Shown piece by piece: positions 1 through 41,427 of a DNA stretch of 64,000 nt; positions within the stretch are counted from its first letter, which is position 1, and each line of letters begins with the position of its first letter. The stretch comes from an uncultured Acidimicrobiales bacterium. GTDB lineage: Bacteria; Actinomycetota; Acidimicrobiia; Acidimicrobiales; SZUA-35. Under the pieces are notes generated by a model that was not told the origin of the DNA, ran no database searches, and worked only from the letters and a program-made list of their open reading frames with translations. Where the stretch lies: assembly GCA_938029215.1 (NCBI GenBank), contig CALHFG010000018.1:4632-68631 (forward strand), written 5' to 3'. Position numbers and translations under genes: made by a program.

Positions 1-189
1 GAGGTACCGCTCAAGTTCGGGACGTCGATCGGGGTCGGGACTCTCGGTCCGGTACCCCACCCGACGCGTCAGATCGTCCACGAACGCACCCGATTCGAAG
101 TACCGGTCGGACGCGGCCAGTGCCGTAGTGCGCATGAGTCAACTCTAGGTTGTGGTGTCCAACCGCGTCGTAGCTACAACAGGTCGTCG

Positions 190-1533
190 TCAGAAGGGTT
201 CTTCGTGGTGAATGGTGTGTCGTCTTCGCTGAGCGAGTGCCACTTGAGTCTTTCCCTTGTGGCAGGGGGTGCAGTAGAGACGCCCGTTTTCGGGGTTGGT
301 GTAGCCACCGTCTTGCCATTCGATTCGATGGTCGACCTGTTCACCGGGCCTATCGCAGCCGGGTGATCGGCAGGTCCGGTCTCGCAGGACCACCGCCATC
401 CGAGCAGCGCCGGTAAACAGGCGTTGGCTTCGCCCTAGCTCTACCTTTCGGGTTGCAGGGTCGAGAACGAATCGGGCGATTCGATGTTTGAGAGCAAGAC
501 GAAACGCTTCTCGGGGTAAGAGAGGTGTGCCCGTGGTGGTTTGGCATTGATATCCGGGACGGAAGACGTCGGTGGGGTCCGAAGCTGGGGCCCGTTCGGT
601 GGCGATCCACTCGGTGAACTTGTCGGCCTCCCGATCGAACGTCTCGACGTCCATGCAGATTGCAACCAGCGGCTCGGGAGACCTGCCGTCTTTGGGTGAA
701 GTATTGGCAAGCGTCGCGAGCAACCCGCAACCCCGTGCCATCCAGTACTTCTTGCCGCGGCGAACCACCGGCCGCAGGGTGTACTCAGAAAGATTGAGGT
801 GATCGTCCTCGGCTTTGATTTCGCTCCCGGATGTACCACCACCATCTTCAGCAGACTGGCGGGCCTGATCTACAAGTCGGAGGAGCCCCTGGCGGAGCAA
901 TTCGGCATCGCTGGTAAGCAGCAACCCCTTGATGGTGGTTGTCCCGTTCTTGTTATCGGTGAAACCGATCGTGAGATCTTTGTCTTCGGGGGCCTTGGCG
1001 TGAGGGTCGACATCCAAAGCTGCGAGGATCCACGCATCACACGCCAGGGCGAACTCGCTATAGGGCAGGTCTCGAGCCAGATCGACCAGCATCTTGTGGT
1101 CCCGTTCGAACAGTTCGGCTCGGGTACGAGTGCGGTTCCCAGGCAGGCACTGCCGAAACTTTTTGACGTGGGATTGGTTGAGCACACCTTCGGCAATGCC
1201 CTCCGCAATTGCATCAAATCGACGAGCGAGACGTCCCGTTGCCACGAGCCGATTACCTTCACTCTTTGCCATGTTGCACTCATGCGCCGCCCAGTTGGCA
1301 GGGTTGGAGTAGGGAGAGCCGGCAAGGCCGCCGTTGTCATCGTACTCGGCAATTTCACAACCGATAACTGCGGTTAGGTGCTCTCTTGCTTTGGTTAGAG
1401 CGGCGAGTCGTTCTGCACCAAGCGGGAGGGTTTCGGCGACATTTAGGAGTGCGATGATGTCTCCGATTTCCGCCATATATAAGTATAACAAGTGTTCGTA
1501 GATGTGCTCCTTAATGGCTCCAAAAGTTGCCAC
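190..1533 (-). CDS. HNH endonuclease-domain protein of the DUF222 / 13E12-repeat family (actinobacterial, multi-copy, mobile-like)
   Basis: 447-aa ORF with a C-terminal HNH motif CRSPGCDRPGEQVDHRIEWQDGGYTNPENGRLYCTPCH. The N-terminal region has the typical DUF222 architecture. Confidence 0.7.
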   Translation of the reverse strand: MATFGAIKEHIYEHLLYLYMAEIGDIIALLNVAETLPLGAERLAALTKAREHLTAVIGCEIAEYDDNGGLAGSPYSNPANWAAHECNMAKSEGNRLVATGRLARRFDAIAEGIAEGVLNQSHVKKFRQCLPGNRTRTRAELFERDHKMLVDLARDLPYSEFALACDAWILAALDVDPHAKAPEDKDLTIGFTDNKNGTTTIKGLLLTSDAELLRQGLLRLVDQARQSAEDGGGTSGSEIKAEDDHLNLSEYTLRPVVRRGKKYWMARGCGLLATLANTSPKDGRSPEPLVAICMDVETFDREADKFTEWIATERAPASDPTDVFRPGYQCQTTTGTPLLPREAFRLALKHRIARFVLDPATRKVELGRSQRLFTGAARMAVVLRDRTCRSPGCDRPGEQVDHRIEWQDGGYTNPENGRLYCTPCHKGKTQVALAQRRRHTIHHEEPF

Positions 1534-1722
1534 GATTCTCCCACATAATCCACGCTCCCCACAGCGGGCAAGCAGGTCAGCGGTGAGCGGTCAGCGGTGA
1601 CGGGTCTCCGGGGAGCGGTCCCCATCGGCCGGACAGGCGGTCGGACCTACAGTCGCCTCAGCCAGCATCCACAACTCGAAGGACAACTACTCGTGCTAAG
1701 TCCATCATCCCGAATCGCAATC

Positions 1723-2355
1723 ATGTTGACCTGCCTTATGTTGCTTGCCGCGTGCGGAAGTGGAGACGAACCTGCAGCAGATGCCGCCACTCCCAGCACG
1801 GAAGGCTCGACTACAACCCAGACACCGACAACCCAGACACCGACAACCCAGACGCCAACGACCGAAGCCCCTACGACAACCCAGCTGCCGACGACCGAGG
1901 CTCCGACCACGACAGCTCCTACTGATACCAGCGGCGAGGGTCCCAGCGAACCGGTCACGCAATCGGTGATGATCGGCGCGATGACGACCTTGCTGTCGCC
2001 CCAGTGCACCGTTCACCCCGAGTTCGGCACTGGGTCCGGACCGGCGTCGTTTGGTTCGGGTGCTCTGGGTCCCCTCGACGACTCGGACCCGCCGGTTGCA
2101 ATTACCGACGAAACGGTGCTGTGTTCTCGGGACGTCGAGAACGACACGGGCACCAGCTACTTTGCATTCGCAACCCAATCCGCTGGCGACGCTGCTGACC
2201 TGTCGGCCTGGTTCGCAACCAGTTCGTGCCGAGCGATGGCTGTAGTCGATTCATGGGTAATTGTCGCCGCGACCACCAGGGACGAACCAGCTGACAGCTC
2301 GTTTCTTGTCCTGACCGACTTGCTCGGTGGAGAGCTTACGCGGAACTGCGGTTAG
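1723..2355 (+). CDS. Secreted lipoprotein with a Thr/Pro-rich repeat linker, function unknown
   Basis: Internal Met of ORF 1597..2355 gives MLTCLMLLAACGSG, a lipobox signal. It is followed by a TQTPTTQTPTTQTPTTEAPTTTQLPTTEAPTTTAPT linker and a Cys-containing C-terminal domain. Confidence 0.5.
   Translation: MLTCLMLLAACGSGDEPAADAATPSTEGSTTTQTPTTQTPTTQTPTTEAPTTTQLPTTEAPTTTAPTDTSGEGPSEPVTQSVMIGAMTTLLSPQCTVHPEFGTGSGPASFGSGALGPLDDSDPPVAITDETVLCSRDVENDTGTSYFAFATQSAGDAADLSAWFATSSCRAMAVVDSWVIVAATTRDEPADSSFLVLTDLLGGELTRNCG
1813..1925 (+). repeat. Coding tandem repeat (15-bp unit acaacccagacaccg x3, then degenerate TTEAPTT units)
   Basis: Direct repetition is visible in the DNA at 1813-1857, continuing in degenerate form to about 1925. 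Confidence 0.6.
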
Positions 2356-2363
2356 TAAACCAG

Positions 2364-2882
2364 CTACTTGGCGATGAGGTCGAGTACGTCCTGTTCCAGA
2401 CTGCCGTACCCGGTTACCTCGAAGGTCCCGTCGTCGTTCAAGAGCACGTAGGTGCGCTGGCGAGTGACGCCAAATCGCTCCCACAACCCGCTGGTTTCGT
2501 CGGGGACATGTTCGAGGCTTTCAACGCCGGTGCGCTCGATGAACTCAAGCATCGACTCTTGGTCGGCAAGCCCGGGAACTCCTATGAAAGTGACCTGGTC
2601 ACCGTATTGCTGCTGCACCTCCACGACCGTGGGGGCTTCAGAACGTCAAAATGGTCACCACGGAGCCCACAGCCAGAGCACCACATCTTGCCCCTCGAGC
2701 GAACCAAGATCGACCGAGTTTCCTGCGAGGGAAGTGAACTCCCCGTCGAATGCAGACGCTGGCGGAGCTGTTGCTGGGGCCTGAGCCGACTCCCCCGTAG
2801 TGGATTCGGCACCGCACGCAGCCAGGGTCAACGCCAGACCGAGCCCTAGGGCGGCTCGTCGAAAGCGGTTGGAGCGGATCAT
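2364..2882 (-). CDS. TlpA/ResA/DsbE-family thioredoxin-fold thiol:disulfide oxidoreductase lipoprotein in which both active-site Cys codons are in-frame TGA. Either a candidate UxxU (SelL-like diselenide) selenoprotein or a pseudogene.
   Basis: ORFs 2655..3197 and 2364..2624 share one reading frame. Reading through gives MIRSNRFRRAALGLGLALTLAACG (lipobox) ... LEGQDVVLWLWAPW-TGA-PF-TGA-RSEAPTVVEVQQQYGDQVTFIGVPG... The TGAs are at 2655-2657 and 2646-2648 on the minus strand, exactly at the two Cys positions of the WAxWCxxCRxE motif. There is no other frame disruption. Confidence 0.5.
2618..2635 (-). promoter_or_regulatory. Candidate bacterial SECIS-like hairpin (CCCCCAC-GGUC-GUGGAGG) starting 10 nt after the second in-frame UGA
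   Basis: A 7-bp stem with one mismatch and a GGUC apical loop, located 10 nt after UGA2 and 19 nt after UGA1 on the mRNA strand. Confidence 0.3.
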
Positions 2883-3041
2883 GCAGGAGTGAACCGGCGA
2901 TTCACCGGACCTATTCCGAAAAGTACGTACGTTCTTCGACGAACCGACTGGGTGCCGGTGTCTACTATCGCGGTGGTGGAGAGTTACGGAAAGTCCAGCA
3001 CGGGATTCAAGTCGTTGGGAACCAGCCTCGAGCCGGACCAT

Positions 3042-4025
3042 ATGGACCTCGGAACGAACCGGACACCGGTGGAGAGCTTCTTCGTCTGTAGTGGTGCGCC
3101 TGCCCCGCTTCCGAGCGATTGGAGCCTCACGCTCGACGGCGACGCCGCTGGAGAGGTGAGAACCCTGACGCTCGCCGACCTTGAGGCACTGCCGCAACAG
3201 TCGGTTGACTCATGGCTCGAATGCGCGGGGAATGGCCGAGCGATGTATGAGCTCGTTGGTGGCTACCCCCGCCCTGAGGAGGCCAACGACACCGCCTGGA
3301 CTCTGGGCAGCATGGGTATGGCGACATGGACTGGCCCGCGTCTGTCCGACGTGATCAACCTGGCCCGTCCAACCGGAGATCTCGCCTGGATAGGTCCGAC
3401 CGGAATGGATGTGGAGAACCTCGAGGGAGAGCCCGTCCGGATGAGCCTGCCGGCCACAAAGGCGCTCCATCCGGACACGCTGGTTGCGCTTGGAATGAAC
3501 GATGAGCCATTGGTGCCAGCCCATGGCGCACCGGCCCGTCTGCTGGTGCCCGGCTGGATTGGCGCCTACTCGGTGAAATGGATCGACCGCTTGGAACTCT
3601 CAACCACGTGGGTTAGCTCCTACCGATCCGACGAGTACTACGTGAGGCGAACCGCTGACGGAACCAAGCTCGGGCCAGCGACCACACATCCGCTCAAATC
3701 GACGGTGGCGTTGCCATTCGGTGCCACCATCGCCGCTGGCCAAACCGAGACCTTGGGCTATGCGCGCGGTGGCGACGGCCCCATCGTGGAGGTGGAGTTC
3801 TCGGTTGATGACGGGGATTGGATGCCGTGCACCCTGCTGCCGCTCGCAAGTCCGTGGGCGTGGACCCCGTTTCGTTTCGAGTGGACCGCCGAGCCGGGTG
3901 AGCGACAGGTACGGACACGAGCGGTCACCGCGTCGGGTGAGACGCAGCCCGACACCGTTCCCTATAACCCTCACACGATCTTGTGGAATGCGGTGACCCC
4001 GCACCGAGTTCTGGTGCGAGCGTAG
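3042..4025 (+). CDS. Sulfite oxidase-family molybdopterin oxidoreductase (Mo domain plus dimerisation domain), no signal peptide
   Basis: Contains the LECAGNGR Mo-ligand cysteine motif and FFVCSGAP at the start of the Mo domain. The ORF opens at 2889 (GTG), but ATG 3042 (MDLGTNRTPVESFF) avoids overlap with the divergent gene, so the start is uncertain. Confidence 0.7.
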   Translation: MDLGTNRTPVESFFVCSGAPAPLPSDWSLTLDGDAAGEVRTLTLADLEALPQQSVDSWLECAGNGRAMYELVGGYPRPEEANDTAWTLGSMGMATWTGPRLSDVINLARPTGDLAWIGPTGMDVENLEGEPVRMSLPATKALHPDTLVALGMNDEPLVPAHGAPARLLVPGWIGAYSVKWIDRLELSTTWVSSYRSDEYYVRRTADGTKLGPATTHPLKSTVALPFGATIAAGQTETLGYARGGDGPIVEVEFSVDDGDWMPCTLLPLASPWAWTPFRFEWTAEPGERQVRTRAVTASGETQPDTVPYNPHTILWNAVTPHRVLVRA

Positions 4026-4066
4026 AACCTTCCTGTAAGCAGCATCCTCGATCTACGCTGGCGAAC

Positions 4067-5302
4067 GTGCCCGACCTCGATCTCGATTTCGTCCGTTCCC
4101 AATTTCCTGCCTTTTCCGAAGCCAGTCTCGACGGTTGGGCCTTCTTTGAAAATGCTGGTGGGTCCTACGCCAGCCGGCAGACGATCCAGAGATTGCACGA
4201 CTTCTATGTGAAAACCAAAGTGCAGCCCTACGCGCCTTACCCGGCTGCCTCCGAGGGCGGCCATCAGATGGATCTGGCGCACGCCCGCCTCGCCGGCCTC
4301 ATGAACGTGGCCGAAGATGAGCTTCACATCGGACCATCCACCAGCCAGAACACTTATGTCCTGGCTCACGCATTCCGTGCCGGTTGGTCTGAGGGCGACG
4401 AGATCATCGTCACCAATCAAGATCACGAAGCCAACTCGGGTGTCTGGCGACGGCTGGAATCCACCGGCATCGTTGTTCGGGAATGGACCGTCGACCCCGA
4501 GACCGGCGAGCTCAACGTAGGTGACTTGGAAGACCTGCTGTCCGCCCGAACCAAGCTCGTAGCGTTTCCCCACTGTTCGAACATCGTGGCCCACATCAAT
4601 CCGGTCAGCGAAATCTGTTCGCTCGTTCACGACGCTGGCGCGGTCGCGGTGGTTGATGGCGTCTCGGCGGCCCCGCATGGACTGCCCGACGTTGAGGCAC
4701 TTGGTGCCGACATCTACCTGTTCTCCGCCTACAAGACCTACGGACCTCATCAGGGGATCATGGTTGTTCGCCGTGCCATGGGCGATGCCCTACCGAATCA
4801 GAGCCACTGGTTCAATGATGGCCAGCCCCATAAGCGACTGGTGCCGGCAGGCCCCGACCACGCCCAAGTTGCGGCTTGCAACGGAATCGCCGACTACGTG
4901 GAAGCGCTTCACGACCATCATTTCGACTCCATAGCTGATGGCGCTGAGCGAGGCCGTCGGGTCCATGATCTGATGCGGAACCATGAGATAGAGCTGCTCG
5001 GTCCACTGGTGCAAATGCTCGATGACCGAAGCGACGTTCGAGTCCTCGGCCCGACCGACCCTCATACGCGGGTGCCGACGGTTGCGTTTGCGACCGAACG
5101 AGACGCCGGCGATGTTGTCCGTTCGCTGTCGGAAAGCAAGGTGATGGCGAGCTCGGGCCACTTCTATGCCCGCCGACTGGTAGAGGCTCTCGGCCAGCCA
5201 GCCAACCCGGGTGTGGTTCGGCTGAGCTTCGTGCACTACACCTCCGCCAGCGAAGTGGCCCAGGCAATGGACGCTCTAACCGGCGCGCTACATACGTCCT
5301 AG
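4067..5302 (+). CDS. Class-V aminotransferase-fold PLP enzyme of the SufS/CsdA (cysteine desulfurase) family lacking the catalytic Cys. Possibly a cysteine sulfinate desulfinase-like enzyme.
   Basis: Contains SAYKTYGP (the PLP-binding Lys region) and a C-terminus ASSGHFYARRL that aligns to SufS RTGHHCAMPL with Cys replaced by Tyr. The N-terminus VPDLDLDFVRSQFPAF resembles SufS starts. GTG 4067 is the chosen start; the ORF opens at 3983. Confidence 0.6.
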   Translation: MPDLDLDFVRSQFPAFSEASLDGWAFFENAGGSYASRQTIQRLHDFYVKTKVQPYAPYPAASEGGHQMDLAHARLAGLMNVAEDELHIGPSTSQNTYVLAHAFRAGWSEGDEIIVTNQDHEANSGVWRRLESTGIVVREWTVDPETGELNVGDLEDLLSARTKLVAFPHCSNIVAHINPVSEICSLVHDAGAVAVVDGVSAAPHGLPDVEALGADIYLFSAYKTYGPHQGIMVVRRAMGDALPNQSHWFNDGQPHKRLVPAGPDHAQVAACNGIADYVEALHDHHFDSIADGAERGRRVHDLMRNHEIELLGPLVQMLDDRSDVRVLGPTDPHTRVPTVAFATERDAGDVVRSLSESKVMASSGHFYARRLVEALGQPANPGVVRLSFVHYTSASEVAQAMDALTGALHTS

Positions 5303-5312
5303 GCTCACCCTC

Positions 5313-6365
5313 ATGAACAACTCCAGCGTGACGGTATCGCCATGGATCGCGGCCCTTCCCAAAGTTGAACTTCACGTCCACTTGGAGGGGTCAATGTCGG
5401 TCGCGACCGTTGAAGAACTCACCCGCCGGCACGGGATCGACCCAACCCCGGTGTGGCCCGACGGCCTACCGGAGCGGTTCTCCTTCGACGGCTTCCCCGA
5501 CTTCGCCAACCAGTTCTTCTACGGCCTCTCGCTTCTGCGCACAGGGGACGACCTCGCCACGGTTGTTGAAGACCTCGCCGTCAGCCTGGCCTCGCAGAAT
5601 GTCCGATACGCCGAAGTAACCACGACCGCCTACACCCACTTTCTCGGGCGCGGCGATCGAGTCGGGATGTCGGCAACTGAATACCGCGATGCTTTGAACG
5701 CGGGGCGTCGTCGGGCCCGCGACCACGGCGTGGAGATGGGTTGGGTGATCGACATCCCCCGCGATCTCGAGATGCCCGACAGCACGGTCACCATCGACTA
5801 CCTCGAGAGTGGTCTAACACCCGATGGCCTCGTCGCTCTCGGACTAGGCGGATACGAGGTTGGCTTCCCCGCAGGTCCGTACGCCGATCACTTTGCACGA
5901 GCCCGTGCCGTTGGACTTCATTCGGTTCCTCACGCCGGAGAAACCGAAGGCGCTCATTCCGTGCGTTCGGCTGTTGAAGACCTAGGCGCCGAGCGGATCG
6001 GCCACGGAGTCCGCTGTCTTGAAGATCCCGAACTCGTCGCCACTCTGGTCGATCAGCAGATCATGATGGAGGTCTGTCCCACATCGAATGATCTCCTTCA
6101 GGTGATCGAGCGGATCGAAGACCACGCGTTACCCGCCATGATGGCGGCCGGATTGCGAGTGTGCCTGAACACCGATGACCCTGGGTGGTTCGCTACCAAC
6201 TTGAACACAGAACTGGCGATCTCCAGCGCTTCGCTCGGGGTCACCGAAAGCCAACATCTCGCAATGCAGCTCGATGCGGTGGAGGCGTCTTTTGCCGAAC
6301 CGGTCGTGAAAGCCGCGATCCGGTCAGAACTTGCCGACGTCAGGCCGACGGACTCCAGAAATTGA
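5313..6365 (+). CDS. add: Adenosine deaminase
   Basis: Carries the PKVELHVHLEGS metal-binding signature and overall ADA-like sequence. A SufS-like gene and a sulfite oxidase gene sit immediately upstream on the same strand. Confidence 0.85.
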   Translation: MNNSSVTVSPWIAALPKVELHVHLEGSMSVATVEELTRRHGIDPTPVWPDGLPERFSFDGFPDFANQFFYGLSLLRTGDDLATVVEDLAVSLASQNVRYAEVTTTAYTHFLGRGDRVGMSATEYRDALNAGRRRARDHGVEMGWVIDIPRDLEMPDSTVTIDYLESGLTPDGLVALGLGGYEVGFPAGPYADHFARARAVGLHSVPHAGETEGAHSVRSAVEDLGAERIGHGVRCLEDPELVATLVDQQIMMEVCPTSNDLLQVIERIEDHALPAMMAAGLRVCLNTDDPGWFATNLNTELAISSASLGVTESQHLAMQLDAVEASFAEPVVKAAIRSELADVRPTDSRN

Positions 6366-6506
6366 TTGCCCGATACGTACGCTCGCCCACGGTGTGGTGT
6401 GCCGATGTTGTAGCCATAGTGTCCCCTTCTGACTGCTGCCTCTTTTCATAATAGCCACTGCGGTAATATGACAAGCAGTCAATTGGGGAGAAAAGTATGA
6501 GGCCGG

Positions 6507-7292
6507 CTACGGCTCCATCGTGAAGAAGCCGTCGGCAAGCGCTTGGCAGGCGATGCCATACAGGTTCCAATCGACCTTCTCGACCACAACCTCTTGCTTC
6601 GGCGGGCTGAATGCGGAGGTCGCATGGTTCGAAAGGCCATCGTTGAGAGCAATGATTGCGAGCACAAAGTGCTCCACAGTGACCCCCGGCTTTACCTTCA
6701 TTCCAAAGATGTCCGCGAACTCTTTGATCAGCTCTACATACGATGCAACGAGCCGATCGTGGCCCTCTTCAATGGCTGCGAGAATCTCAGGATCCGGAAC
6801 CGGCGCAGTATTTGCTGCCGCCACTAGACCGGTATAGAGACGCCACATTTCCGAATTGAGGCGATCATGGTTAAAGAATGCAACCGCCCGTATGACCTCG
6901 TCGCGAGCCCACCGTTTTCGATCGAGGTCGCCCGAGTTGATGTCGTCGCTGAGGTTGGCGAGCAATTCCAATGCCATCTCGCGGGTGGGACCGGCATTGT
7001 TTGCGGTGGTGGATTTCAGCAGGTGGAGAACCGTGGCGTGCCGAAGGTTCTCCTGCGGTGTCCGATCTGGATGCTCCCATGCTTCATAGGCGCTCCCCCG
7101 TGGCACTTCGGCCAGCACGAGAACTCGATCGATGCGGATGGCGTCGACGCCAAAGGACGTTCCGTTTGCCAGCAGTTCCTGGACCGATTGGTCGATCATG
7201 CGCGAGTGGACCTCGGCAGGTGCAAACTTCCGTTTCCGTCCAGCTCGTCGCTTTGGGGGCTCGGCCGGATCAGTTGTTGAATCTTCTACCAA
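6507..7292 (-). CDS. TetR-like transcriptional regulator (divergent N-terminal HTH)
   Basis: The N-terminus ...FGVDAIRIDRVLVLAEVPRGSAYEAW fits the TetR HTH pattern (T..IA..AGVS.G.LY.HF). The rest is helical with no other recognisable motif. Confidence 0.45.
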   Translation of the reverse strand: MVEDSTTDPAEPPKRRAGRKRKFAPAEVHSRMIDQSVQELLANGTSFGVDAIRIDRVLVLAEVPRGSAYEAWEHPDRTPQENLRHATVLHLLKSTTANNAGPTREMALELLANLSDDINSGDLDRKRWARDEVIRAVAFFNHDRLNSEMWRLYTGLVAAANTAPVPDPEILAAIEEGHDRLVASYVELIKEFADIFGMKVKPGVTVEHFVLAIIALNDGLSNHATSAFSPPKQEVVVEKVDWNLYGIACQALADGFFTMEP

Positions 7293-7349
7293 GACATTTC
7301 TCCACTCTGATCATAGACTTTTTCAGCTGAACAGCAGCTGAGCAGTGTT

Positions 7350-8108
7350 CTAGAGGCCACGTAGTACGAGCGGCACCCCTGCCATAACGAGCCCACCCGC
7401 GAGCAGCACCAGCACCGTTTGCGCTGAGAGCTTGCCTGCGCTGAGCGCACCAATACGTCCGCCAATGACGGCGCCGACGATGACGAAGGGTGCAAAGGAC
7501 CACCGCGGGTTGCCTGCCAAGGCATGGCCCACGGCCGCGGCAAGTCCAGAACTCGCTCCGATCAGCGTTGTGGTCGCAGCCGCTCGATGAGCCGACAACT
7601 GTTGCAGCCTGGCAATGAGCGGCACCGTCACAAGACCCGCTCCGACACCGAGCGCTCCTGACAGCACGCCGATCAACGCACCCGACCCGGTGAGCGCCAT
7701 CACCTTTGGTTCCTTGACCGCACCGTCGGATCGTCCCGGCGACGGACCAAAAACGACGAACACCGCTAGTGCGATAAGCAGAAAGCCGATGATCAGATCG
7801 AACGCTCGTTGCGGGATCCGACTAGCCAACCACGCAGCCGACAAAAACGACACCGGGATCGCTCCAATCACAAACCATCGAGCGGTTTGGCGATCGACCA
7901 TGCCCGAACGGTCATAGGTGTAGGCCCCGACCGCTTGGACAAACAGTGTCGTAATCACGCTGGTCCCGACGGCGGTCGCGCCACCTAGGTCGAAAAACAA
8001 CACCAGGCCCGACACCATAAGGAAGCCCCCACCGGCACCAATGATCGACCCGTAGACGCCAACCAAAAGGGCGAGGACAAAGAGCCCAGCGGCGGTTTCC
8101 ACGTTCAT
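7350..8108 (-). CDS. TauE/SafE (DUF81) family sulfite/sulfoacetate exporter-type membrane protein
   Basis: Gly-rich, ~8-TM protein with the internal duplication typical of the family (GSIIGAGGGFLMVSGLV ... GALGVGAGLVTVPLI). Confidence 0.75.
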   Translation of the reverse strand: MNVETAAGLFVLALLVGVYGSIIGAGGGFLMVSGLVLFFDLGGATAVGTSVITTLFVQAVGAYTYDRSGMVDRQTARWFVIGAIPVSFLSAAWLASRIPQRAFDLIIGFLLIALAVFVVFGPSPGRSDGAVKEPKVMALTGSGALIGVLSGALGVGAGLVTVPLIARLQQLSAHRAAATTTLIGASSGLAAAVGHALAGNPRWSFAPFVIVGAVIGGRIGALSAGKLSAQTVLVLLAGGLVMAGVPLVLRGL

Positions 8109-8180
8109 CGCGGCCGAGCGTAGATGACCAGCACCAACAATTCGGCCAAGGCAGCGAACCTCGCCCAGTAAATTGAACCG

Positions 8181-9821
8181 ATGAGCGCTGCGCCAGATCT
8201 ACGGGAAGAACGGGAAGCGCTCGAAGAGGCCCGGATTGCGGTTCAGGAGAAGTTGCGAGTTCTTGCCCAGGTCGAAGGCGGGGCAGCCGACGCACTTACC
8301 CAGGAATACATCGACTCGGTGGTTCGTGGTGCGGTCGAGAGGCTCCAGCAGGAGCTGGTCGTTTTCGGAAGAATCGATGACCCTCATCCGTGGAGAATCG
8401 GCTTGTACGGGATCGACCGGGCTGGGGACCAGTTGGTCGTCGATTGGCGAACGCCATTGGCCCGGACCTTCTATCAGGCTGGATTCGACGAACCGCTCGG
8501 GCTCACTCGACGGGTGACCTACGTCGGCACGATCGAGGACCTGTTCGTGGAGGACTATCTCACCGGCGAGGTCGCCGGTTCCTCGCCGCTCATGCGAGAA
8601 CTCAACCGAAGTCGAGGCCAACAGATGAGAGCGGCGGTGGCAACGCTTCAAAGCGAGCAGGACCAGCTCGTTCGTCTAGCGCCAACCAAGAAGCTGGTAC
8701 TTCGGGGCGGGCCAGGAACCGGCAAGACGGTCGTTGGCCTGCACCGCGCTGCCTGGCTCGTCTACAACGACACCCGACTCACCGCCGGCCGGATTCTCAT
8801 CATCGGGCCAAGCGACAAGTTCCTGCGATTCGTTGCAGCTGTCATGCCCACGTTGGGTGAAGCACGGATTGTGCAAACCACCTTCGACCGACTGCTCGGG
8901 CCATCAACGGCAGCTGGCAGCGATGAGCGTTGGCTCGGGATTCTCGATCGGTATGAGGCCAGCCTGCTCGACCCGCACGAGGTCATCGTGGGCTACACCC
9001 GTCTCCGAATCGATGTCATTACCGACGCAGTGGAGCGAGCGTCCAAGCGCTCACTGCCCTGGCGTGACAGACGCAAGGTCTTCAACCAGATCCTTGCCAA
9101 TGGTCGCGACCTCAAGATTGGTGACGTCAGCCAAGCGACCGCCAAGATCTGGCCTCCCCGATCGGCCCGGGCCGCAATGAAACAGCTCTCGCAGCGTTCC
9201 ACTCTGGAGCGACTAGGAGCGCCGAGCGATCTGATCGATGACTGGGTGTCGAACCCAACCGATGGCGCCCTCATCGACGAGGTGCGAGCGCGTTTTGAAG
9301 GGGTCCCATCGCTGTATGGCCATGTGATCGTCGACGAAGCTCAAGACCTCAACCTGCTTCAGTTGCGGGCCATACAGCGCCGCTCAACGGGCTTCACGCT
9401 CGTCGGCGACGACGCCCAGATGTCGGCGCCCAATGGCTTGGGACTGCGCGGTGCAGCCCGTCGGCTGGGAGTCGATGTCGAAGAGTTGGCTACCGCCTAC
9501 CGAATGTCCGCCGAGATCGCGGACTGGCTGAACAATTGGGCGCGCACGAGTGGAGTCGACGCCGTGGTGTTGCTGGGCATCCGGGCCAACGGCATAGAGG
9601 TCCGAGAGATCTCGGGCAACTCGACGGTGGTGGCGGACCATCTTGAACGGCTCAGCCGATCATGGACCAACGTTTCGCTGATAACCGCCGAGGACGCCTG
9701 GAGTCACAAGGGCGTTGAGTACGACGGAGTCGTCGTTGACACCACCGATATGACGCCGGCGCAGGTATACATCGCTGCATCTCGGGCCGCTCACGAGTTG
9801 GTCATCGTGCACCCAGGTTGA
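8181..9821 (+). CDS. helD: HelD-like (helicase IV / UvrD-like) ATPase, RNA-polymerase-associated in Actinobacteria
   Basis: A coiled-coil N-terminus is followed by Walker A VLRGGPGTGKTV, a UvrD-like 1A/2A layout and the C-terminal motif VYIAASRAAHELVIV. Confidence 0.7.
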   Translation: MSAAPDLREEREALEEARIAVQEKLRVLAQVEGGAADALTQEYIDSVVRGAVERLQQELVVFGRIDDPHPWRIGLYGIDRAGDQLVVDWRTPLARTFYQAGFDEPLGLTRRVTYVGTIEDLFVEDYLTGEVAGSSPLMRELNRSRGQQMRAAVATLQSEQDQLVRLAPTKKLVLRGGPGTGKTVVGLHRAAWLVYNDTRLTAGRILIIGPSDKFLRFVAAVMPTLGEARIVQTTFDRLLGPSTAAGSDERWLGILDRYEASLLDPHEVIVGYTRLRIDVITDAVERASKRSLPWRDRRKVFNQILANGRDLKIGDVSQATAKIWPPRSARAAMKQLSQRSTLERLGAPSDLIDDWVSNPTDGALIDEVRARFEGVPSLYGHVIVDEAQDLNLLQLRAIQRRSTGFTLVGDDAQMSAPNGLGLRGAARRLGVDVEELATAYRMSAEIADWLNNWARTSGVDAVVLLGIRANGIEVREISGNSTVVADHLERLSRSWTNVSLITAEDAWSHKGVEYDGVVVDTTDMTPAQVYIAASRAAHELVIVHPG

Positions 9822-14624: not shown

Positions 14625-15350
14625 CTACACCAGCAAGAGACCGAGGCGAACGGTGTATCCGCTCATCACGGTCCAGAACAGGATCGCGAACCGGTGTTCA
14701 CCGACACGTTCGTTGAGTGAGGATCCGGTCCAGGTTCCTAACGCCATAAGCGGGATCGCCGCCAGGGCCATGAAGACCGAACTCCGGCCCAACAGATCGG
14801 CCTCGGCGAAGATTGCCGTTTTGGTTGCGTCGCCGGCGAACGATGCCAGCGAGGCGGCGCCGACAAAGTGCCGTCGGTCCAGGTCGAGGTTACGAATAGC
14901 GACACCCTTCAGTGGGCCGCTGGTTCCCGAGAATCCGCTCGAGGCACCCGAGACGAGCGCGAGTAACGGGGCGAATCCTGTTCGTACCGTGGTCAGTTGG
15001 AGCCGTTCCGCGATCATGGTCGAGACGAACATGAAGATCACGCCGGCGGTCACAACGATGGTGGGAGCTTTCACAAGCAACGTCGAGCCCAATGCGGCGC
15101 CCAATGCAATCAGGATCACGATCGGCACGGCGGCTCGGAAGGGCAGCGTCTTTCTGTAGGCGATGATCTTGGCCATGTTGTTGCTGGCCAACAAGAGTCC
15201 GGCGAGCGCCACGCCTTCCTTGGTCCCCAAATACAACGCCAGGGTTGGAACGAGAACCAACGATCCGCCGAGACCGGCCGAAGCCGAAACGGCAAACGAC
15301 ACGAACACCAACACGAGCACGCCAACGATTGCAAGAATTTCCACTACCAC
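14625..15350 (-). CDS. TauE/SafE (DUF81) family membrane exporter, a second paralog
   Basis: Hydrophobic, Gly-rich protein (SASAGLGGSLVLVPTL ... SGASSGFSGTSGPL). It is a paralog of the gene at 7350..8108. Confidence 0.7.
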   Translation of the reverse strand: MVVEILAIVGVLVLVFVSFAVSASAGLGGSLVLVPTLALYLGTKEGVALAGLLLASNNMAKIIAYRKTLPFRAAVPIVILIALGAALGSTLLVKAPTIVVTAGVIFMFVSTMIAERLQLTTVRTGFAPLLALVSGASSGFSGTSGPLKGVAIRNLDLDRRHFVGAASLASFAGDATKTAIFAEADLLGRSSVFMALAAIPLMALGTWTGSSLNERVGEHRFAILFWTVMSGYTVRLGLLLV

Positions 15351-24535: not shown

Positions 24536-25783
24536 TTGACCACGACCGATACCCGATCGACCGATCGGCCGCAACGATCGGACCGACAGGTCATCGCGTA
24601 CCTCGCGTTCACGGGCATTCTGCTGGCCCTTGGTATCGATATTGCCCTCCCGGCATTCGACGAGATTCGGCCAGCGCTCGGACTGGCCGAAGGGTCGAAT
24701 CGCATTACCCAGGTCATCACCGTCTACTTCCTGGGCATGGGCCTTGGACAGTTGGTATGGGGCCCGGTTTCGGACCGGTTCGGCCGACAGCGGGCGATGC
24801 TCACTGGGGTCGGTCTCTATGTCGGGTGCGCTGTTGCTTCCGCACTCGCCCCGTCCTTCACCGTGCTCCTACTGGCTCGGTTCATCTGGGGACTCGGTGC
24901 AGCGGCGCCAACCGGCCTACGGCCAGCGATCGCACGCGATCTCTATCGCGGCGATCAGATGGCACGTGTCATGAGCATGGTTATGGCGATCTTCATGATC
25001 GGCCCCATTCTCGCTCCGTTGCTCGGTGAGGTGATCCTCAGCGTGGTGTCATGGCGGTACGTGTTTGTGTTCTGCGCTCTCGCTGGAGCCGGACAGATGG
25101 CCTGGACGGTCCAGTTTGGCGAAACCCTCCCGAAGGATCAGCGTCAGCCGTTGGAGTTCCGCACCACCGGCCGTGCGTTCGTTCGGGTCGTGACAACCCG
25201 ACAGACCATCGCCTACACCTTGGCCCTGGCGTTCGCCTATAGCGGGTTCTACGTCTACCTTGCCAGCACTCAACCGATCATGGACACCATCTACGGGCGG
25301 GCGAATCAGTTCGCGATCGTGTTCGGTGCATCGGGAATTCTCATGGCTGGAGCCTTCGTTCTGTCCAATCGCCTCTTCGCTCGAATCGGCACCGCCGCGA
25401 CCGTGAATGCGTCGGCGGTGGTCTTTATCGCACTGGCCACCGCTCAGCTCGCTCTCGTTCTGTCCGCGGGGGGTACACCATCGTTCTGGCCGTGGATCGC
25501 ACTGGTCACCGCAGCAAACCTGGTTGGCGCTCCATTAGGTCCTGCCGCATTCACTCTCGGCCTCGAACCAATGGGTGATTTGGCAGGCACCGCAGCCGGT
25601 GTGATGGGCTTTCTTTCCATGACGATCGCATCGGGCCTGTCCGCGATCGTGAACTCACAGATCGACCTCACCGTTACGCCAATGGCCCTCGGCTACGGCC
25701 TTTTCGGACTGCTGTCGCTGCTCGCCCTCATCCTTGCTCAGCGCCCTGGTCCAAAGGAACTGCGCAACACCGTCGACCCCTAG
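24536..25783 (+). CDS. MFS transporter, Bcr/CflA-like drug-resistance subfamily
   Basis: Contains VYFLGMGLGQLVWGPVSDRFGRQ (motif A region). 12 TM. Confidence 0.75.
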   Translation: MTTTDTRSTDRPQRSDRQVIAYLAFTGILLALGIDIALPAFDEIRPALGLAEGSNRITQVITVYFLGMGLGQLVWGPVSDRFGRQRAMLTGVGLYVGCAVASALAPSFTVLLLARFIWGLGAAAPTGLRPAIARDLYRGDQMARVMSMVMAIFMIGPILAPLLGEVILSVVSWRYVFVFCALAGAGQMAWTVQFGETLPKDQRQPLEFRTTGRAFVRVVTTRQTIAYTLALAFAYSGFYVYLASTQPIMDTIYGRANQFAIVFGASGILMAGAFVLSNRLFARIGTAATVNASAVVFIALATAQLALVLSAGGTPSFWPWIALVTAANLVGAPLGPAAFTLGLEPMGDLAGTAAGVMGFLSMTIASGLSAIVNSQIDLTVTPMALGYGLFGLLSLLALILAQRPGPKELRNTVDP

Positions 25784-39419: not shown

Positions 39420-40808
39420 TCAGGATGAACCGGAAGCGTGCGCCAGCTGGGTCCAGGCGGCGTATCCGCCGAGGATGTCAGACACATCGCTGAACCCCGC
39501 ATGACGGAGAAGGCTCGCCCCCACCGATGACCGGTAACCGCCGGCGCAGAACACCACCGTGGGCGCCGCAGGGTCGAGTTCGTTCAGTCGGTCCCTCAAC
39601 TGGCTAACAGGAATCGACTCCGCTCGATCGATCGATCCCAGTGCGTGCTCGCCCGGGTTCCGAATGTCGATGAGCTGCAGTCCGGCCACCCCATCCCGGC
39701 GGCTGTCAAACTCGATCGCAGTCATGCGCGATGCTCTCCGGACCTTCTCGGGGTTGCTCGCCAACACTGCCAGAGGGGCCTGAAGAAAGCCGACGACTCG
39801 GTCGAATCCGATGCGGGCGAGCCGATTCTTCGCCTCTCGTTCAAATCCCTCGTCAACAACAAGAACGATGTCCGTGTCGGATGGAACCGTCGAGCCAGCG
39901 AATTCGGCGTAACGACCGTTGAGACCGACATTCACCGATCCAATCAGATGGCCGGCGGCAAAGTCTTCAGGATCGCGCCCGTCGAGCAGAACGGCTCCGC
40001 TGGACATGAGACCTTCGACTGCGGTGAGGGTCAGGGCTCGCGGTTGCCCATGTTCGTCGAGCAGGTCTCGGTCCTTGCGGTTGAGGATCGCGTCGTACAC
40101 GAAGTAGCTCGGCGCTGGTGGCTGCCCCTCGGTAACCATCTCGATGAACGCTTCCTTAGTGGGGGCCATGAGCGCATAGTTCGTCAACCGCTGCTCACCG
40201 ATCGTGGACGACGTTTCTGTGGAGAGATTCTTTCCGCACGCCGATCCAGCACCATGTCCAGGGAACACTCTGGTGGCATCGGGTAGACGAAGAAGCTTGT
40301 TGTGCAAGCTGTCATACAGCTTCTCGGCGAGTTCGTCCTGGGTAAAGCCGATGGAGGCCAGCAAATCTGGCCGGCCGACGTCTCCGATGAATAGGGTGTC
40401 GCCGGTGAGAACCGCGTACGGAGTTTTATCGGATGCATCTTCGAACACGACGATGCTGAGCGATTCGGGCGTATGGCCCGGGGTATGAAGGATCTCGAGC
40501 TCCACCGATCCCAGCGAAATGCGTTCACCGTCACGGAGTTTCCGAGACCGAAACTCGGTCTCGGCAACTTCTGAGTACGCGATGTCGGCACCTGTAGCGG
40601 CTGCCAACTCGAGGTGACCAGATAAGAAGTCGGCATGGAAGTGCGTTTCGATCACGAGCTCGATCGTGAGACCGTGGTCTGCAGCGTCAGTGACGTACTC
40701 GTCGATATCTCGGCGTGGGTCAACAACCACGGCACGACCTGTGGTTTGATCGCCGATGAGGTACGACGCTTGGGAGAGGCAATCTAAGTAGTACTGCGTG
40801 AATTTCAC
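39420..40808 (-). CDS. MBL-fold metallo-hydrolase fused to two rhodanese domains (persulfide dioxygenase-rhodanese fusion, CstB/Blh-like)
   Basis: The N-terminus has ETHFHADF...HTPGHTPES (a metallo-beta-lactamase fold). The C-terminus has the rhodanese active-site loop VVFCAGGYRSS. Confidence 0.75.
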   Translation of the reverse strand: MKFTQYYLDCLSQASYLIGDQTTGRAVVVDPRRDIDEYVTDAADHGLTIELVIETHFHADFLSGHLELAAATGADIAYSEVAETEFRSRKLRDGERISLGSVELEILHTPGHTPESLSIVVFEDASDKTPYAVLTGDTLFIGDVGRPDLLASIGFTQDELAEKLYDSLHNKLLRLPDATRVFPGHGAGSACGKNLSTETSSTIGEQRLTNYALMAPTKEAFIEMVTEGQPPAPSYFVYDAILNRKDRDLLDEHGQPRALTLTAVEGLMSSGAVLLDGRDPEDFAAGHLIGSVNVGLNGRYAEFAGSTVPSDTDIVLVVDEGFEREAKNRLARIGFDRVVGFLQAPLAVLASNPEKVRRASRMTAIEFDSRRDGVAGLQLIDIRNPGEHALGSIDRAESIPVSQLRDRLNELDPAAPTVVFCAGGYRSSVGASLLRHAGFSDVSDILGGYAAWTQLAHASGSS

Positions 40809-40834
40809 CGTGTGGTCCTTTCAGGATGTGTTTG

Positions 40835-41419: not shown

Positions 41420-41427
41420 GACGCCTC

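What the first reader, a model, noticed from the sequence alone, without database searches (positions are those of the whole stretch)
2889..8108. A compact 'organic sulfur to sulfite to sulfate/export' module: Cys-less SufS-like enzyme, sulfite oxidase and TauE/SafE
Adjacent on the plus strand are a sulfite-oxidase-family Mo enzyme (LECAGNGR) and a SufS/CsdA-family PLP enzyme that lacks the catalytic cysteine. A TauE/SafE sulfite-exporter-type protein sits 2 kb away, with a second TauE/SafE at 14.6 kb and SulP permeases at 41 and 50 kb.

A Cys-less SufS homolog cannot form a persulfide. It can still act as a desulfinase, for example cysteine sulfinate to alanine plus sulfite. That reaction would feed sulfite to the neighbouring sulfite oxidase or to the exporter. 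This is a coherent, testable pathway hypothesis.

The module sits right next to the candidate selenoprotein, and the selenocysteine-lyase/SufS family is the one that mobilises selenium, so the neighbourhood is worth noting.
Basis: inference. Interest (0 to 1): 0.55.

Follow-up and report, generated by a model that had tools for sequence, protein, structure and literature searches.

The report
Lineage-specific molybdoenzyme and PLP-enzyme operon
The genes are really there as described, but the proposed "organic sulfur to sulfite to sulfate" pathway has little support: the gene pair is kept together only in three close relatives, and the "sulfite oxidase" lacks two of the three arginines that bind sulfite.

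Summary
A sulfite-oxidase-fold Mo enzyme (about 2976-4025, LECAGNGR) is followed 41 nt later by a SufS-like PLP enzyme (4067-5302). That enzyme has Tyr where SufS has its catalytic Cys. An adenosine deaminase comes next, and a TetR-like/TauE pair lies convergent on the other strand. The second TauE and both SulP genes are also real.

The pathway reading is weak.
- The PLP enzyme belongs to a very large, highly conserved family that has no invariant Cys (best match TIGR01976). Its nearest solved relatives are fungal Fgm3 (a retro-aldolase) and UstD (a decarboxylative aldolase), not CsdA.
- In 80 genome loci of this family, none has a sulfite-oxidase homolog, TauE1 or the deaminase within 10 kb.
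- Of 55 loci holding homologs of the Mo enzyme, only one close relative has the PLP gene.
- The arrangement Mo enzyme, PLP enzyme, TetR-like, TauE occurs only in three lineages with 75-100% identical proteins.
- The Mo enzyme keeps the Mo-ligand Cys, R190 and Y322. It has an invariant Cys in place of the central arginine (chicken R138) and has no R450.
- TauE is a generic permease in a separate transcription unit.

Desulfination remains chemically possible but untested. Interest is modest.

The parts
2976..4025 (+). Cytoplasmic two-domain sulfite-oxidase-fold molybdoenzyme, about 349 aa. The longest ORF starts at 2889. The Mo-ligand Cys codon is at 3222-3224. A clade-invariant Cys at 3087-3089 replaces chicken SO R138.
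   Evidence: PF00174, 144 bits. SorT 135.8 bits against a cut-off of 570, and MsrP 28.6 against 207. PDB sequence hits to chicken SO, SorT and plant SO. AF2 model pLDDT 82, with TM 0.8 to chicken SO and SorT but 0.42 to YedY. Start and invariant residues come from alignment A2. No signal peptide is visible at the N-terminus.
4067..5302 (+). Class-V (NifS/SufS-fold) PLP enzyme without the catalytic Cys, 411 aa. It is TIGR01976-like and Fgm3/UstD-like. Tyr367 (codon 5165-5167) sits at the SufS Cys position.
   Evidence: PF00266, 158 bits. TIGR01976 282.6 bits (cut-off 352), SufS 138.5 (cut-off 475), CsdA 100.6 (cut-off 494). PDB hits: Fgm3 9x4u E 7.7e-55 (37% identity), UstD 7mkv 9.5e-37, SufS about 1e-27, CsdA 1e-19. 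Family alignment A1. AF2 model has TM about 0.8 to SufS and UstD.
5313..6365 (+). Adenosine deaminase, starting 10 nt after the PLP gene. It is present only in the window's own lineage.
   Evidence: PF00962, 240.7 bits; TIGR01430 240.8 bits against a cut-off of 216.55. Absent between the PLP and TetR-like genes in L092 and L093.
6507..7292 (-). 261-aa protein with a basic N-terminus and a weak TetR C-terminal match. It is probably a regulator, and lies downstream of TauE on the same strand.
   Evidence: Only PF13977, E 0.009; no NCBIfam hit. Conserved next to TauE in L011, L092 and L093 at 76-100% identity.
7350..8108 (-). TauE/SafE (TSUP/DUF81) family membrane permease, convergent to the Mo-enzyme/PLP operon.
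   Evidence: PF01925, 142 bits. Conserved in L011 and L092. No homolog found near the PLP gene in 80 other genomes.

Best explanation
This is a lineage-specific operon in a marine Acidimicrobiales-type actinobacterium. It joins two enzymes that each depart from the family they are named after, and it is not a demonstrated sulfite module.

The PLP enzyme belongs to a very widespread, strongly conserved family with no invariant Cys, related to fungal Fgm3 and UstD. It most likely binds an L-amino acid as an external aldimine. It then breaks the bond between C-beta and a beta- or gamma-substituent (C-C, C-SO2- or C-Se) without any enzyme persulfide. This gives the PLP-alanine enamine, which is protonated and released as alanine. 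Its physiological substrate is unknown.

The Mo enzyme is a cytoplasmic, heme-less, two-domain SO-fold oxidoreductase. Its substrate pocket is remodelled: the central Arg is replaced by an invariant Cys, and there is no R450. It therefore probably does not act as a classical sulfite oxidase.

Shown: family assignments, the missing or changed catalytic residues, gene order, and its narrow phylogenetic spread. The Mo-enzyme gene appears to have been placed between an M20 peptidase gene and the PLP gene in the common ancestor of three close lineages.

Inferred: co-transcription (gaps of 41 nt and 10 nt), the reaction type, and the lack of an obligatory functional link between the two enzymes or with TauE.
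For: - PLP family assignment and missing Cys.
- Published chemistry of the relatives: Fgm3 retro-aldol on a hydroxylated arginine; UstD enamine, decarboxylative aldol and alanine by-product.
- Variable context of the PLP gene: M20 and PhyH; acuI, GntR and dmdEF-like; amidohydrolases and a BMP transporter; coxSLM-type hydroxylase plus DinB/MDMPI; photolyase and CFA-synthase-like in about 40 Rhodobacterales.
- No SO homolog, adenosine deaminase or TauE1 in 80 loci.
- Mo enzyme residues: R138 to Cys, R190 and Y322 kept, R450 absent.
- Mo enzyme contexts: between nuoN and nuoA in 8 loci; next to an MFS transporter; next to DHquinase and TauD.
- The pair occurs only in L011, L092 and L093.
- The M20 gene abuts the PLP gene in L001/L002, abuts the Mo-enzyme gene in L092, and its N-terminus lies at window 1-135.
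Against: - The two genes are co-directional with a short gap in all three lineages that have them, so selection for co-expression cannot be excluded.
- One Mo-enzyme homolog (61% identity) is followed by a TauD-family gene, scoring 228 bits against a cut-off of 313 for taurine dioxygenase. Another has a Cys/Met-metabolism PLP gene 1.8 kb away. These are faint hints of a sulfur connection for the clade.
- New clade-invariant arginines (R225, R272 and R323 in A2 numbering) might rebuild an anion site.
- No residue-level structural analysis was possible, because model coordinates are not exposed.
- No experiment exists for any bacterial member of either clade, as far as my searches show.
Confidence: 0.5

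Rival explanations
1. The Cys-less PLP enzyme desulfinates cysteine sulfinate (or a related sulfinate) to alanine plus sulfite. The adjacent Mo enzyme oxidises the sulfite to sulfate in the cytoplasm, and TauE exports sulfite or sulfate.
For: - Operon-like pair kept in three lineages together with TauE.
- Loss of a beta-SO2- group is mechanistically equivalent to the beta-decarboxylation done by the relative UstD.
- From my own knowledge, Cys-to-Ala NifS homologs keep sulfinate activity (pmid 10739946, listed).
- The overall fold of the Mo enzyme is that of true sulfite dehydrogenases, not YedY. R190, Y322 and the Mo-ligand Cys are kept.
- A TauD-family gene lies next to one homolog.
Against: - The pair is absent from 80/80 PLP-family loci and 54/55 loci of the Mo-enzyme clade.
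- The counterparts of R138 and R450 are missing. From my own knowledge, mutating the central Arg in human SO, SorA and SorT strongly impairs sulfite turnover; PDB entries of such mutants are listed.
- Scores lie far below the SorT, SorA and SoxC cut-offs.
- CsdA is a more distant relative than Fgm3 or UstD.
- TauE is convergent and generic.
- An unrelated adenosine deaminase is the third gene of the operon.
- No cysteine dioxygenase or other sulfinate source was found in the 64 kb surveyed.
Confidence: 0.12
2. The PLP enzyme works with the neighbouring M20 metallopeptidase. The peptidase or deacylase frees an unusual amino acid from a dipeptide or an N-acyl or N-carbamoyl conjugate, and the PLP enzyme then cleaves it to alanine plus a small fragment. 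The Mo-enzyme gene is a later, unrelated insertion.
For: - The same M20 orthologue (PRK07079 type, 75% identity) is divergently adjacent to the PLP gene in L001/L002 and to the Mo-enzyme/PLP pair in L092.
- Its N-terminus is at window 1-135.
- Amidohydrolase and M20 genes also lie near the PLP gene in L004.
Against: The M20 neighbour is confined to this one Acidimicrobiales subclade and is absent from the 80 genome loci at E<=1e-8. It may therefore be inherited synteny. In the window, 2.8 kb of inserted genes now separate the two.
Confidence: 0.13
3. The PLP enzyme is functionally tied to molybdoenzymes in general. It follows a coxSLM-type Mo hydroxylase plus a DinB/MDMPI gene in sister lineages and an SO-fold Mo enzyme here. 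It could process a product of these enzymes, or supply or remove a sulfur or selenium species for them.
For: Co-directional, tightly spaced coxS-L-M, MDMPI and PLP genes occur in L005/L006, L007/L008/L012, L009/L010 and L013; L014 is partial. A second, unrelated Mo enzyme sits at the same upstream position in the window clade.
Against: - There are only two arrangements, both inside one order.
- Most family members (Rhodobacterales and others) have no Mo enzyme nearby.
- A Cys-less enzyme cannot act as a classical Moco sulfurase.
- From my own knowledge, SO-family enzymes need no terminal sulfido ligand.
Confidence: 0.08
4. Selenium reading. The Cys-less enzyme acts as a selenocysteine beta-lyase that recycles selenium, and is linked to the adjacent two-TGA redoxin gene.
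For: - From my own knowledge, Cys-to-Ala NifS homologs keep selenocysteine lyase activity (pmid 10739946, listed).
- The divergent neighbour has TGA at both CxxC positions, followed by a hairpin with a GGUC loop.
Against: - The redoxin, a lipoprotein gene and an HNH/DUF222 gene are an insertion specific to the window lineage. L092 has the M20 gene at that place.
- The PLP family is far more widespread than this neighbour.
- SclA scores 68.7 bits against a cut-off of 525.
- No selA, selB, selD or tRNA-Sec gene was found among the ORFs scanned, and no tRNA gene of any kind was found in the window.
Confidence: 0.05

Closest known systems
Fgm3 (Fusarium graminearum, PDB 9x4u) and UstD (Aspergillus flavus, PDB 7mkv): Cys-less 'cysteine desulfurase-like' PLP enzymes
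   Same: They are the best sequence matches among solved structures: E 7.7e-55 (37% identity) and 9.5e-37. They share the same type-II NifS fold. They share the motifs NAGGS, DHExN, HCSN, DGVxxAPH, FSxYKxYGPH and GHF(Y/F)xxR, and they have no Cys at the SufS position. Both work through the PLP-alanine enamine at C-beta.
   Different: They are fungal secondary-metabolism enzymes. The window protein belongs to a bacterial family that is present in hundreds of species and is 55-80% identical across phyla, which suggests a core or catabolic role. The Tyr that the cited authors propose as the Fgm3 base (K-x-Y) is Tyr or Trp in the bacterial family. The substrate is unknown.
TIGR01976 (VC1184 family, 'cysteine desulfurase-like protein', function unknown)
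   Same: It is the best NCBIfam match over the full length, 282.6 bits. JGI names several 70-76% identical homologs as members of this family.
   Different: The score is below the curated cut-off of 352.35, so the protein is a sister clade rather than a certified member. The family itself has no assigned function.
CsdA / SufS (CsdB): type-II cysteine desulfurases with cysteine-sulfinate desulfinase and selenocysteine lyase side activities
   Same: Same fold, PLP lysine and acid-base histidine.
   Different: The catalytic Cys is replaced by Tyr. The scores are 100-139 bits against cut-offs of 475-494. There is no SufE, CsdE or SufU partner gene nearby.
Sulfite-oxidizing enzymes of the SO family (chicken/human SO, plant SO, SorA, SorT, Thermus SOE)
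   Same: Two-domain fold with TM about 0.8. The Mo-ligand Cys in CAGN, R190, Y322 and the PGxxGxxSVKW motif are kept.
   Different: The central Arg (chicken R138, SorA R55, SorT R78) is an invariant Cys. His140 and R450 are not kept. There is no signal peptide, heme domain or cytochrome partner. Scores are 106-136 bits against cut-offs of 420-600. Its closest homologs sit beside nuo genes, not sulfur genes.
TauE/SafE (PF01925, TSUP family)
   Same: Clear family membership at 142 bits.
   Different: From my own knowledge, the family name reflects a few sulfonate operons, and members transport diverse anions. Here the gene forms a unit with a TetR-like gene on the opposite strand.

Membership tests
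SufS/CsdA type-II cysteine desulfurase | PLP-binding lysine and active-site histidine | tested here: met
   K223 in SAYKTYGPH and H120 in QDHEAN are invariant in A1 and align with SufS.
SufS/CsdA type-II cysteine desulfurase | Catalytic persulfide-forming Cys in the GHHC(A/S)QP loop | tested here: not met
   The loop reads SGHFYARR, with Tyr at codon 5165-5167. No Cys is invariant in the family.
SufS/CsdA type-II cysteine desulfurase | Curated HMM cut-offs (TIGR01979, TIGR03392, NF006791) | tested here: not met
   138.5 against 475.1; 100.6 against 493.6; 107.5 against 661.
SufS/CsdA type-II cysteine desulfurase | Sulfur-acceptor partner (SufE, CsdE or SufU) or suf genes nearby | tested here: not met
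   None among the annotated genes of 1-16 kb or the rest of the window.
Cysteine sulfinate desulfinase activity | Release of sulfite and alanine from L-cysteine sulfinate | not testable with these tools
   This needs an enzyme assay. Only the chemical plausibility can be argued.
TIGR01976 / Fgm3-UstD-like Cys-less class-V enzymes | Best full-length similarity to this group, with no Cys at the SufS position | tested here: met
   TIGR01976 is the top NCBIfam hit. Fgm3 and UstD are the top PDB hits. The loop is GHF(Y/F) in both.
TIGR01976 / Fgm3-UstD-like Cys-less class-V enzymes | Curated cut-off of TIGR01976 | tested here: not met
   282.6 bits against 352.35.
Sulfite oxidase family (SO fold) | Moco-binding domain with the Mo-ligand Cys, plus the C-terminal dimerisation-type domain | tested here: met
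   PF00174 at 144 bits, with the Cys in LECAGNGR. The alignment to chicken SO runs through the C-terminal domain. TM is 0.8 to two-domain SOs. PF03404 itself scores only 18 bits against 22.7.
Sulfite-oxidizing enzymes (SorA, SorT, SoxC, animal and plant SO) | Sulfite-binding pocket: R138, R190, R450, Y322 (chicken numbering) | tested here: not met
   R190 and Y322 are kept. R138 is an invariant Cys (FFVC[SN], codon 3087-3089). R450 aligns to His or a variable residue.
Sulfite-oxidizing enzymes (SorA, SorT, SoxC, animal and plant SO) | Curated HMM cut-offs | tested here: not met
   SorT 135.8 against 570; SoxC 131.4 against 420; SorA 105.7 against 600.
MsrP/YedY methionine-sulfoxide reductase | Single-domain YedY fold and HMM cut-off | tested here: not met
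   28.6 bits against 207. TM is 0.42 to YedY (1xdq/1xdy), against 0.8 to SO.
TauE/SafE | PF01925 membrane domain | tested here: met
   142 bits for 7350-8108 and 63 bits for 14625-15350, against a cut-off of 32.6.
TauE/SafE | Sulfite or sulfoacetate export linked to a sulfonate- or sulfinate-degrading operon | tested here: inconclusive
   The gene is convergent to the operon and paired with a TetR-like gene. It is kept near the pair in only three close lineages. Transport specificity cannot be read from sequence.
   0 of 80 PLP loci and 1 of 55 Mo-enzyme loci. Present only in L011 (99%), L092 (75-79%) and L093 (75-80%).

The most novel reading that the evidence does not exclude
The SO-fold enzyme with an invariant active-site Cys in place of the central arginine, together with the Cys-less NifS-like enzyme, forms a new cytoplasmic route for an organosulfur or organoselenium compound. 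In this reading, the PLP enzyme releases a sulfinate- or seleninate-type or persulfide-type fragment, and the remodelled Mo site captures it on its Cys and oxidises it. The clade of Mo enzymes with this Cys would then be a functionally new branch of the sulfite oxidase family.
Probability: 0.08. Interest if true: 0.65.

Novelty: new member of a known kind. Interest (0 to 1): 0.3.

Why it matters
It would also describe a cytoplasmic way of dealing with sulfite.

My results instead separate two questions that are each worth asking:
1. What does this highly conserved family with no invariant Cys do in bacteria? So far its chemistry is known only from two fungal natural-product enzymes.
2. What is the substrate of a sizeable clade of SO-fold enzymes that carry Cys where all studied sulfite oxidases have their key arginine?

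The locus itself gives no strong lead on either question, because the juxtaposition is recent and narrow.

Tried and rejected
- Rfam scan of 1-16 kb: no riboswitch (for example a Moco riboswitch) or other RNA.
- Promoter and terminator consensus scan of 2300-8400: not above the shuffled background, so not informative.
- tRNA scan: none, so no tRNA-Sec in the window.
- Search for Moco-biosynthesis, Sec-machinery, cysteine dioxygenase or suf genes among the window's ORFs: none found.
- Literature: no paper found on a bacterial member of the PLP family, on TIGR01976/VC1184 function, or on the Mo-enzyme clade carrying the active-site Cys.
  - Rv3778c (PDB 3cai) is a relative that lacks the PLP lysine and is thought to be non-catalytic, so it is not a model here.
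  - The roseobacter dmdR/dmdA/acuI paper does not mention the PLP gene, although that gene lies downstream of acuI-like genes in 31 of 80 loci. In Ruegeria lacuscaerulensis the neighbours are miaA and pyrH instead. I treat this as inherited synteny.
- C-DES cystine lyase as a model: it is not among the PDB hits at E<=1e-5.
- The in-frame stop in the L092 Mo-enzyme gene: it is TAG at a Trp codon in a contig with 1.3x coverage. It is a likely sequencing error or pseudogene, not Sec.
- Fold search against AFDB50: library unavailable.
- Measuring active-site distances in the AF2 models was not possible, because coordinates are not exposed.

Full report
**What is in the sequence**

Region 2.3-8.3 kb holds the following genes.
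- A redoxin-fold lipoprotein gene on the minus strand (2879 to 2364).
- A plus-strand run of three genes:
  - an SO-fold Mo enzyme (longest ORF 2889-4025);
  - a class-V PLP enzyme (3983/4067-5302);
  - an adenosine deaminase (5313-6365; TIGR01430 240.8 bits against a cut-off of 216.55).
- A minus-strand pair: TauE (7350-8108) followed by a 261-aa TetR-like gene (7292 to 6507).
- A UvrD-like helicase gene (8181-9821).

Homologs of the Mo enzyme are about 350 aa and start at '(M/V)ESYGK', and the stretch before the first ATG is conserved (K14, S25, L26, E27 are invariant). The start is therefore GTG 2973/2976. There is no signal or TAT sequence, so the protein is cytoplasmic.

A gene call in a 99%-identical metagenome contig (L011) puts the PLP start at GTG 4067. 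That leaves 41 nt after the Mo-enzyme stop codon. The second TauE (14625-15350) and two SulP-STAS permeases (41428-43191 and 50436-52115) are confirmed.

**The PLP enzyme**

- Its best NCBIfam match is TIGR01976 ('cysteine desulfurase-like protein', function unknown): 282.6 bits, below the cut-off of 352.
- SufS, CsdA, NifS, IscS and SclA models score 40-139 bits against cut-offs of 475-660.
- Among solved structures the order is Fgm3 (9x4u, E 7.7e-55, 37% identity over 380 columns), UstD (7mkv, 9.5e-37), then true desulfurases (1e-32 to 1e-27), then CsdA (1e-19).
- An AF2 model (pLDDT 77) superposes on SufS, UstD and Rv3778c with TM about 0.8.
- Where SufS reads GHHC, this protein reads GHFY (Tyr codon 5165-5167). 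In twelve family members spanning 63-80% identity, F366, Y367 and R370 are invariant and no Cys is invariant. The PLP lysine (K223) and the QDHEAN histidine are kept.

The characterised relatives act on C-C bonds at C-beta. Fgm3 performs a retro-aldol cleavage of a hydroxylated arginine. UstD decarboxylates to a PLP-enamine that either adds to an aldehyde or is protonated to alanine. Loss of SO2 from cysteine sulfinate is the same type of step. From my own knowledge, Cys-to-Ala mutants of E. coli CsdA, CsdB and IscS keep sulfinate and selenocysteine activity (Mihara et al. 2000, pmid 10739946, seen in a reference list). Desulfination is thus plausible chemistry, but it is one option among several.

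**The PLP family and its contexts**

The family is very large. At least 8000 database clusters score E<=1e-20, which is the scoring cap. Members occur in Rhodobacterales (Ruegeria, Sulfitobacter, Roseovarius and others), Rhodospirillales, Kiloniellaceae, Chloroflexota and Acidimicrobiia, at 55-74% identity to the window protein.

Its neighbours vary.
- M20 peptidase and a PhyH-type dioxygenase (L001).
- A dmdF/dmdE/GntR/acuI-like set (L003).
- Amidohydrolases and a BMP-type ABC transporter (L004).
- A coxSLM-type Mo hydroxylase plus a DinB/MDMPI gene in several Acidimicrobiales (L005-L010, L012-L014).
- In about 40 Rhodobacterales, a photolyase, a CFA-synthase-like gene, a NUDIX gene and a cysteine-synthase-like gene downstream.

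A tblastn screen of the 80 best genome loci (10-kb flanks) gave zero hits for the window's Mo enzyme, adenosine deaminase, TauE1 and TetR-like protein. Of these loci, 74 have at least 1.3 kb upstream.

**The Mo enzyme**

- Pfam PF00174 is clear at 144 bits.
- SorT, SoxC and SorA models score 106-136 bits against cut-offs of 420-600. MsrP scores 29 against 207.
- The AF2 model (pLDDT 82) matches chicken SO, SorT, SorA, plant SO and Thermus SOE with TM about 0.8. It matches YedY only at 0.42. It is therefore a two-domain SO-type protein, not a YedY/MsrP-type one.

Alignments of the single sequence and of a 14-member profile to chicken SO agree on the active-site residues.
- The Mo ligand C185 is kept.
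- R190 is kept.
- Y322 is kept.
- The 'FFTRNH' segment reads 'FFVC(S/N)x', so R138 is replaced by a Cys that is invariant down to 39% identity (codon 3087-3089). H140 is lost.
- R450 aligns with a variable position (His in the window).

From my own knowledge, the central Arg (human R160, SorA R55, SorT R78) is the residue whose mutation most damages sulfite turnover. Structures of exactly these mutants appear in the hit list. New clade-invariant arginines exist (R225, R272, R323), so an anion site cannot be excluded. Even so, calling this protein a sulfite oxidase is not justified.

**Synteny from the Mo enzyme's side**

A profile scan of metagenome contigs gave 55 loci. Only L093 (Mo enzyme 75%, PLP enzyme 80% identical) carries the PLP gene, again followed by the TetR-like gene. 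Twelve loci with at least 50% identity had enough downstream sequence to show a partner.

- Eight homologs at 54-60% identity lie between nuoN and nuoA/B/C.
- One is fused in an operon with an MFS transporter and has a Cys/Met-type PLP gene 1.8 kb away.
- One is followed by a type-II dehydroquinase and a TauD-family dioxygenase, which scores 228 bits against a cut-off of 313 for taurine dioxygenase.

The last two are weak sulfur-flavoured hints, not a pattern.

**History of the locus**

Three lineages share the order Mo enzyme, PLP enzyme, TetR-like (minus strand), TauE (minus strand), helicase.
- The window and L011 (99-100% identity).
- L092 (75-79% for these four proteins, 90% for the helicase).
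- L093 (75-80%, a short contig).

L092 and L093 lack the adenosine deaminase, so that gene is a recent addition to the operon.

In L092 an M20 peptidase (PRK07079 type) is divergently adjacent to the Mo-enzyme gene. In L001/L002 (PLP enzyme 75% identical) the orthologous M20 gene is divergently adjacent to the PLP gene itself, with no Mo enzyme present. The first 135 bases of the window encode the N-terminus of that same M20 on the minus strand.

The simplest history has three steps:
1. M20 and PLP were adjacent.
2. The Mo-enzyme gene was then placed between them.
3. In the window lineage, an HNH/DUF222 gene, a Thr/Pro-rich lipoprotein gene and the two-TGA redoxin gene were inserted between M20 and the Mo-enzyme gene.

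**Verdict on the pathway**

It is conserved only over a phylogenetic distance at which gene order is normally retained by descent, and not beyond.
- The Mo enzyme lacks two of the three sulfite-binding arginines.
- TauE belongs to a broad permease family. It sits in another transcription unit with its own putative regulator.
- The SulP genes lie among Usp, PAS-kinase, LuxR-regulator and hibernation-factor genes. They sit next to a persulfide-dioxygenase/rhodanese fusion (39420-40808), which is a better-precedented sulfite source than anything in the flagged region.

My preferred reading, at about 0.5, is a lineage-specific operon of two enzymes with unknown and not necessarily linked substrates. 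The remaining probability is split among an M20-linked amino-acid route, a general link between the PLP enzyme and Mo enzymes, and a selenium role.

**Novelty and interest**

Both proteins are members of known folds and families. The PLP family is already catalogued (TIGR01976-like), and its missing Cys has precedent in Fgm3 and UstD. I found no description of the Arg-to-Cys clade of SO-fold enzymes, but my literature access is limited.

The module as proposed is not established. The locus is of modest interest (0.3), mainly as a pointer to two uncharacterised enzyme clades.

Noticed in passing
window 2364-2879 (-), TGA codons at about 2654-2656 and 2645-2647: This redoxin/thioredoxin-fold lipoprotein gene (PF08534 when Cys is substituted) has TGA at BOTH positions of the CxxC motif: WAPW-TGA-PF-TGA-RSEAP. 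A homolog reads WAPWCSQCQREAP. A hairpin with a GGUC apical loop starts about 9 nt (10th base) after the second TGA. This would be a rare UxxU selenoprotein candidate. No Sec machinery or tRNA-Sec is present in the window.
   Followed up: partly
window 1-2880: The first 135 bases encode, on the minus strand, the N-terminus of an M20 peptidase. Its orthologue directly abuts the Mo-enzyme gene in L092 and the PLP gene in L001/L002. The HNH/DUF222 gene (190-1533), the Thr/Pro-rich lipoprotein gene (1597-2355) and the two-TGA redoxin gene therefore look like an insertion specific to this lineage.
   Followed up: partly
window 39420-43191 (-): A metallo-beta-lactamase (persulfide dioxygenase-type) plus rhodanese fusion (462 aa) lies next to a SulP-STAS permease, with a 221-aa ORF of no known family between them. 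This resembles known sulfide-detoxification units that make sulfite or thiosulfate. It is a more conventional sulfur module than the flagged one.
   Followed up: no
window 3087-3089; alignment A2; loci L095-L102, L110, L150: A clade of cytoplasmic two-domain SO-fold proteins (down to 39% identity) has an invariant Cys where studied sulfite oxidases have the central Arg (FFVC[SN] instead of FFxRNH). In eight metagenome loci and one MAG the gene sits between nuoN and nuoA.
   Followed up: partly
L005, L007-L010, L012-L014: In sister Acidimicrobiales, the PLP orthologue is the last gene of a co-directional coxS-coxL-coxM-type Mo hydroxylase plus DinB/MDMPI cluster. The PLP gene thus follows two unrelated kinds of molybdoenzyme in related lineages.
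   Followed up: partly
L092 1966-1968: The Mo-enzyme orthologue in this contig has an in-frame TAG at a conserved Trp codon. The contig has 1.3x coverage, so this is probably a sequencing error, or possibly a pseudogene.
   Followed up: yes
L003, and 31 of the 80 loci L012-L091: In many Rhodobacterales the PLP gene lies downstream of an acuI-like reductase gene. In 19 loci it also lies downstream of a dmdA-like gene. In Limibaculum it lies next to dmdF/dmdE/GntR-like genes, that is, beside the DMSP demethylation/acrylate locus described in PMC12992908. That paper does not mention the PLP gene.
   Followed up: partly
window 25780-30813 (-): A 1677-aa protein with DUF3686 ('ATPase involved in DNA repair'), DUF7902 and AAA_5 domains. 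It might belong to a defence or repair system.
   Followed up: no
window 35928-58238: A cluster of three tandem-Usp genes, two PAS histidine kinases (HisKA_3), a LuxR-type response regulator and a hibernation-factor fusion surrounds the SulP genes. It looks like a dormancy or hypoxia-type stress regulon.
   Followed up: no
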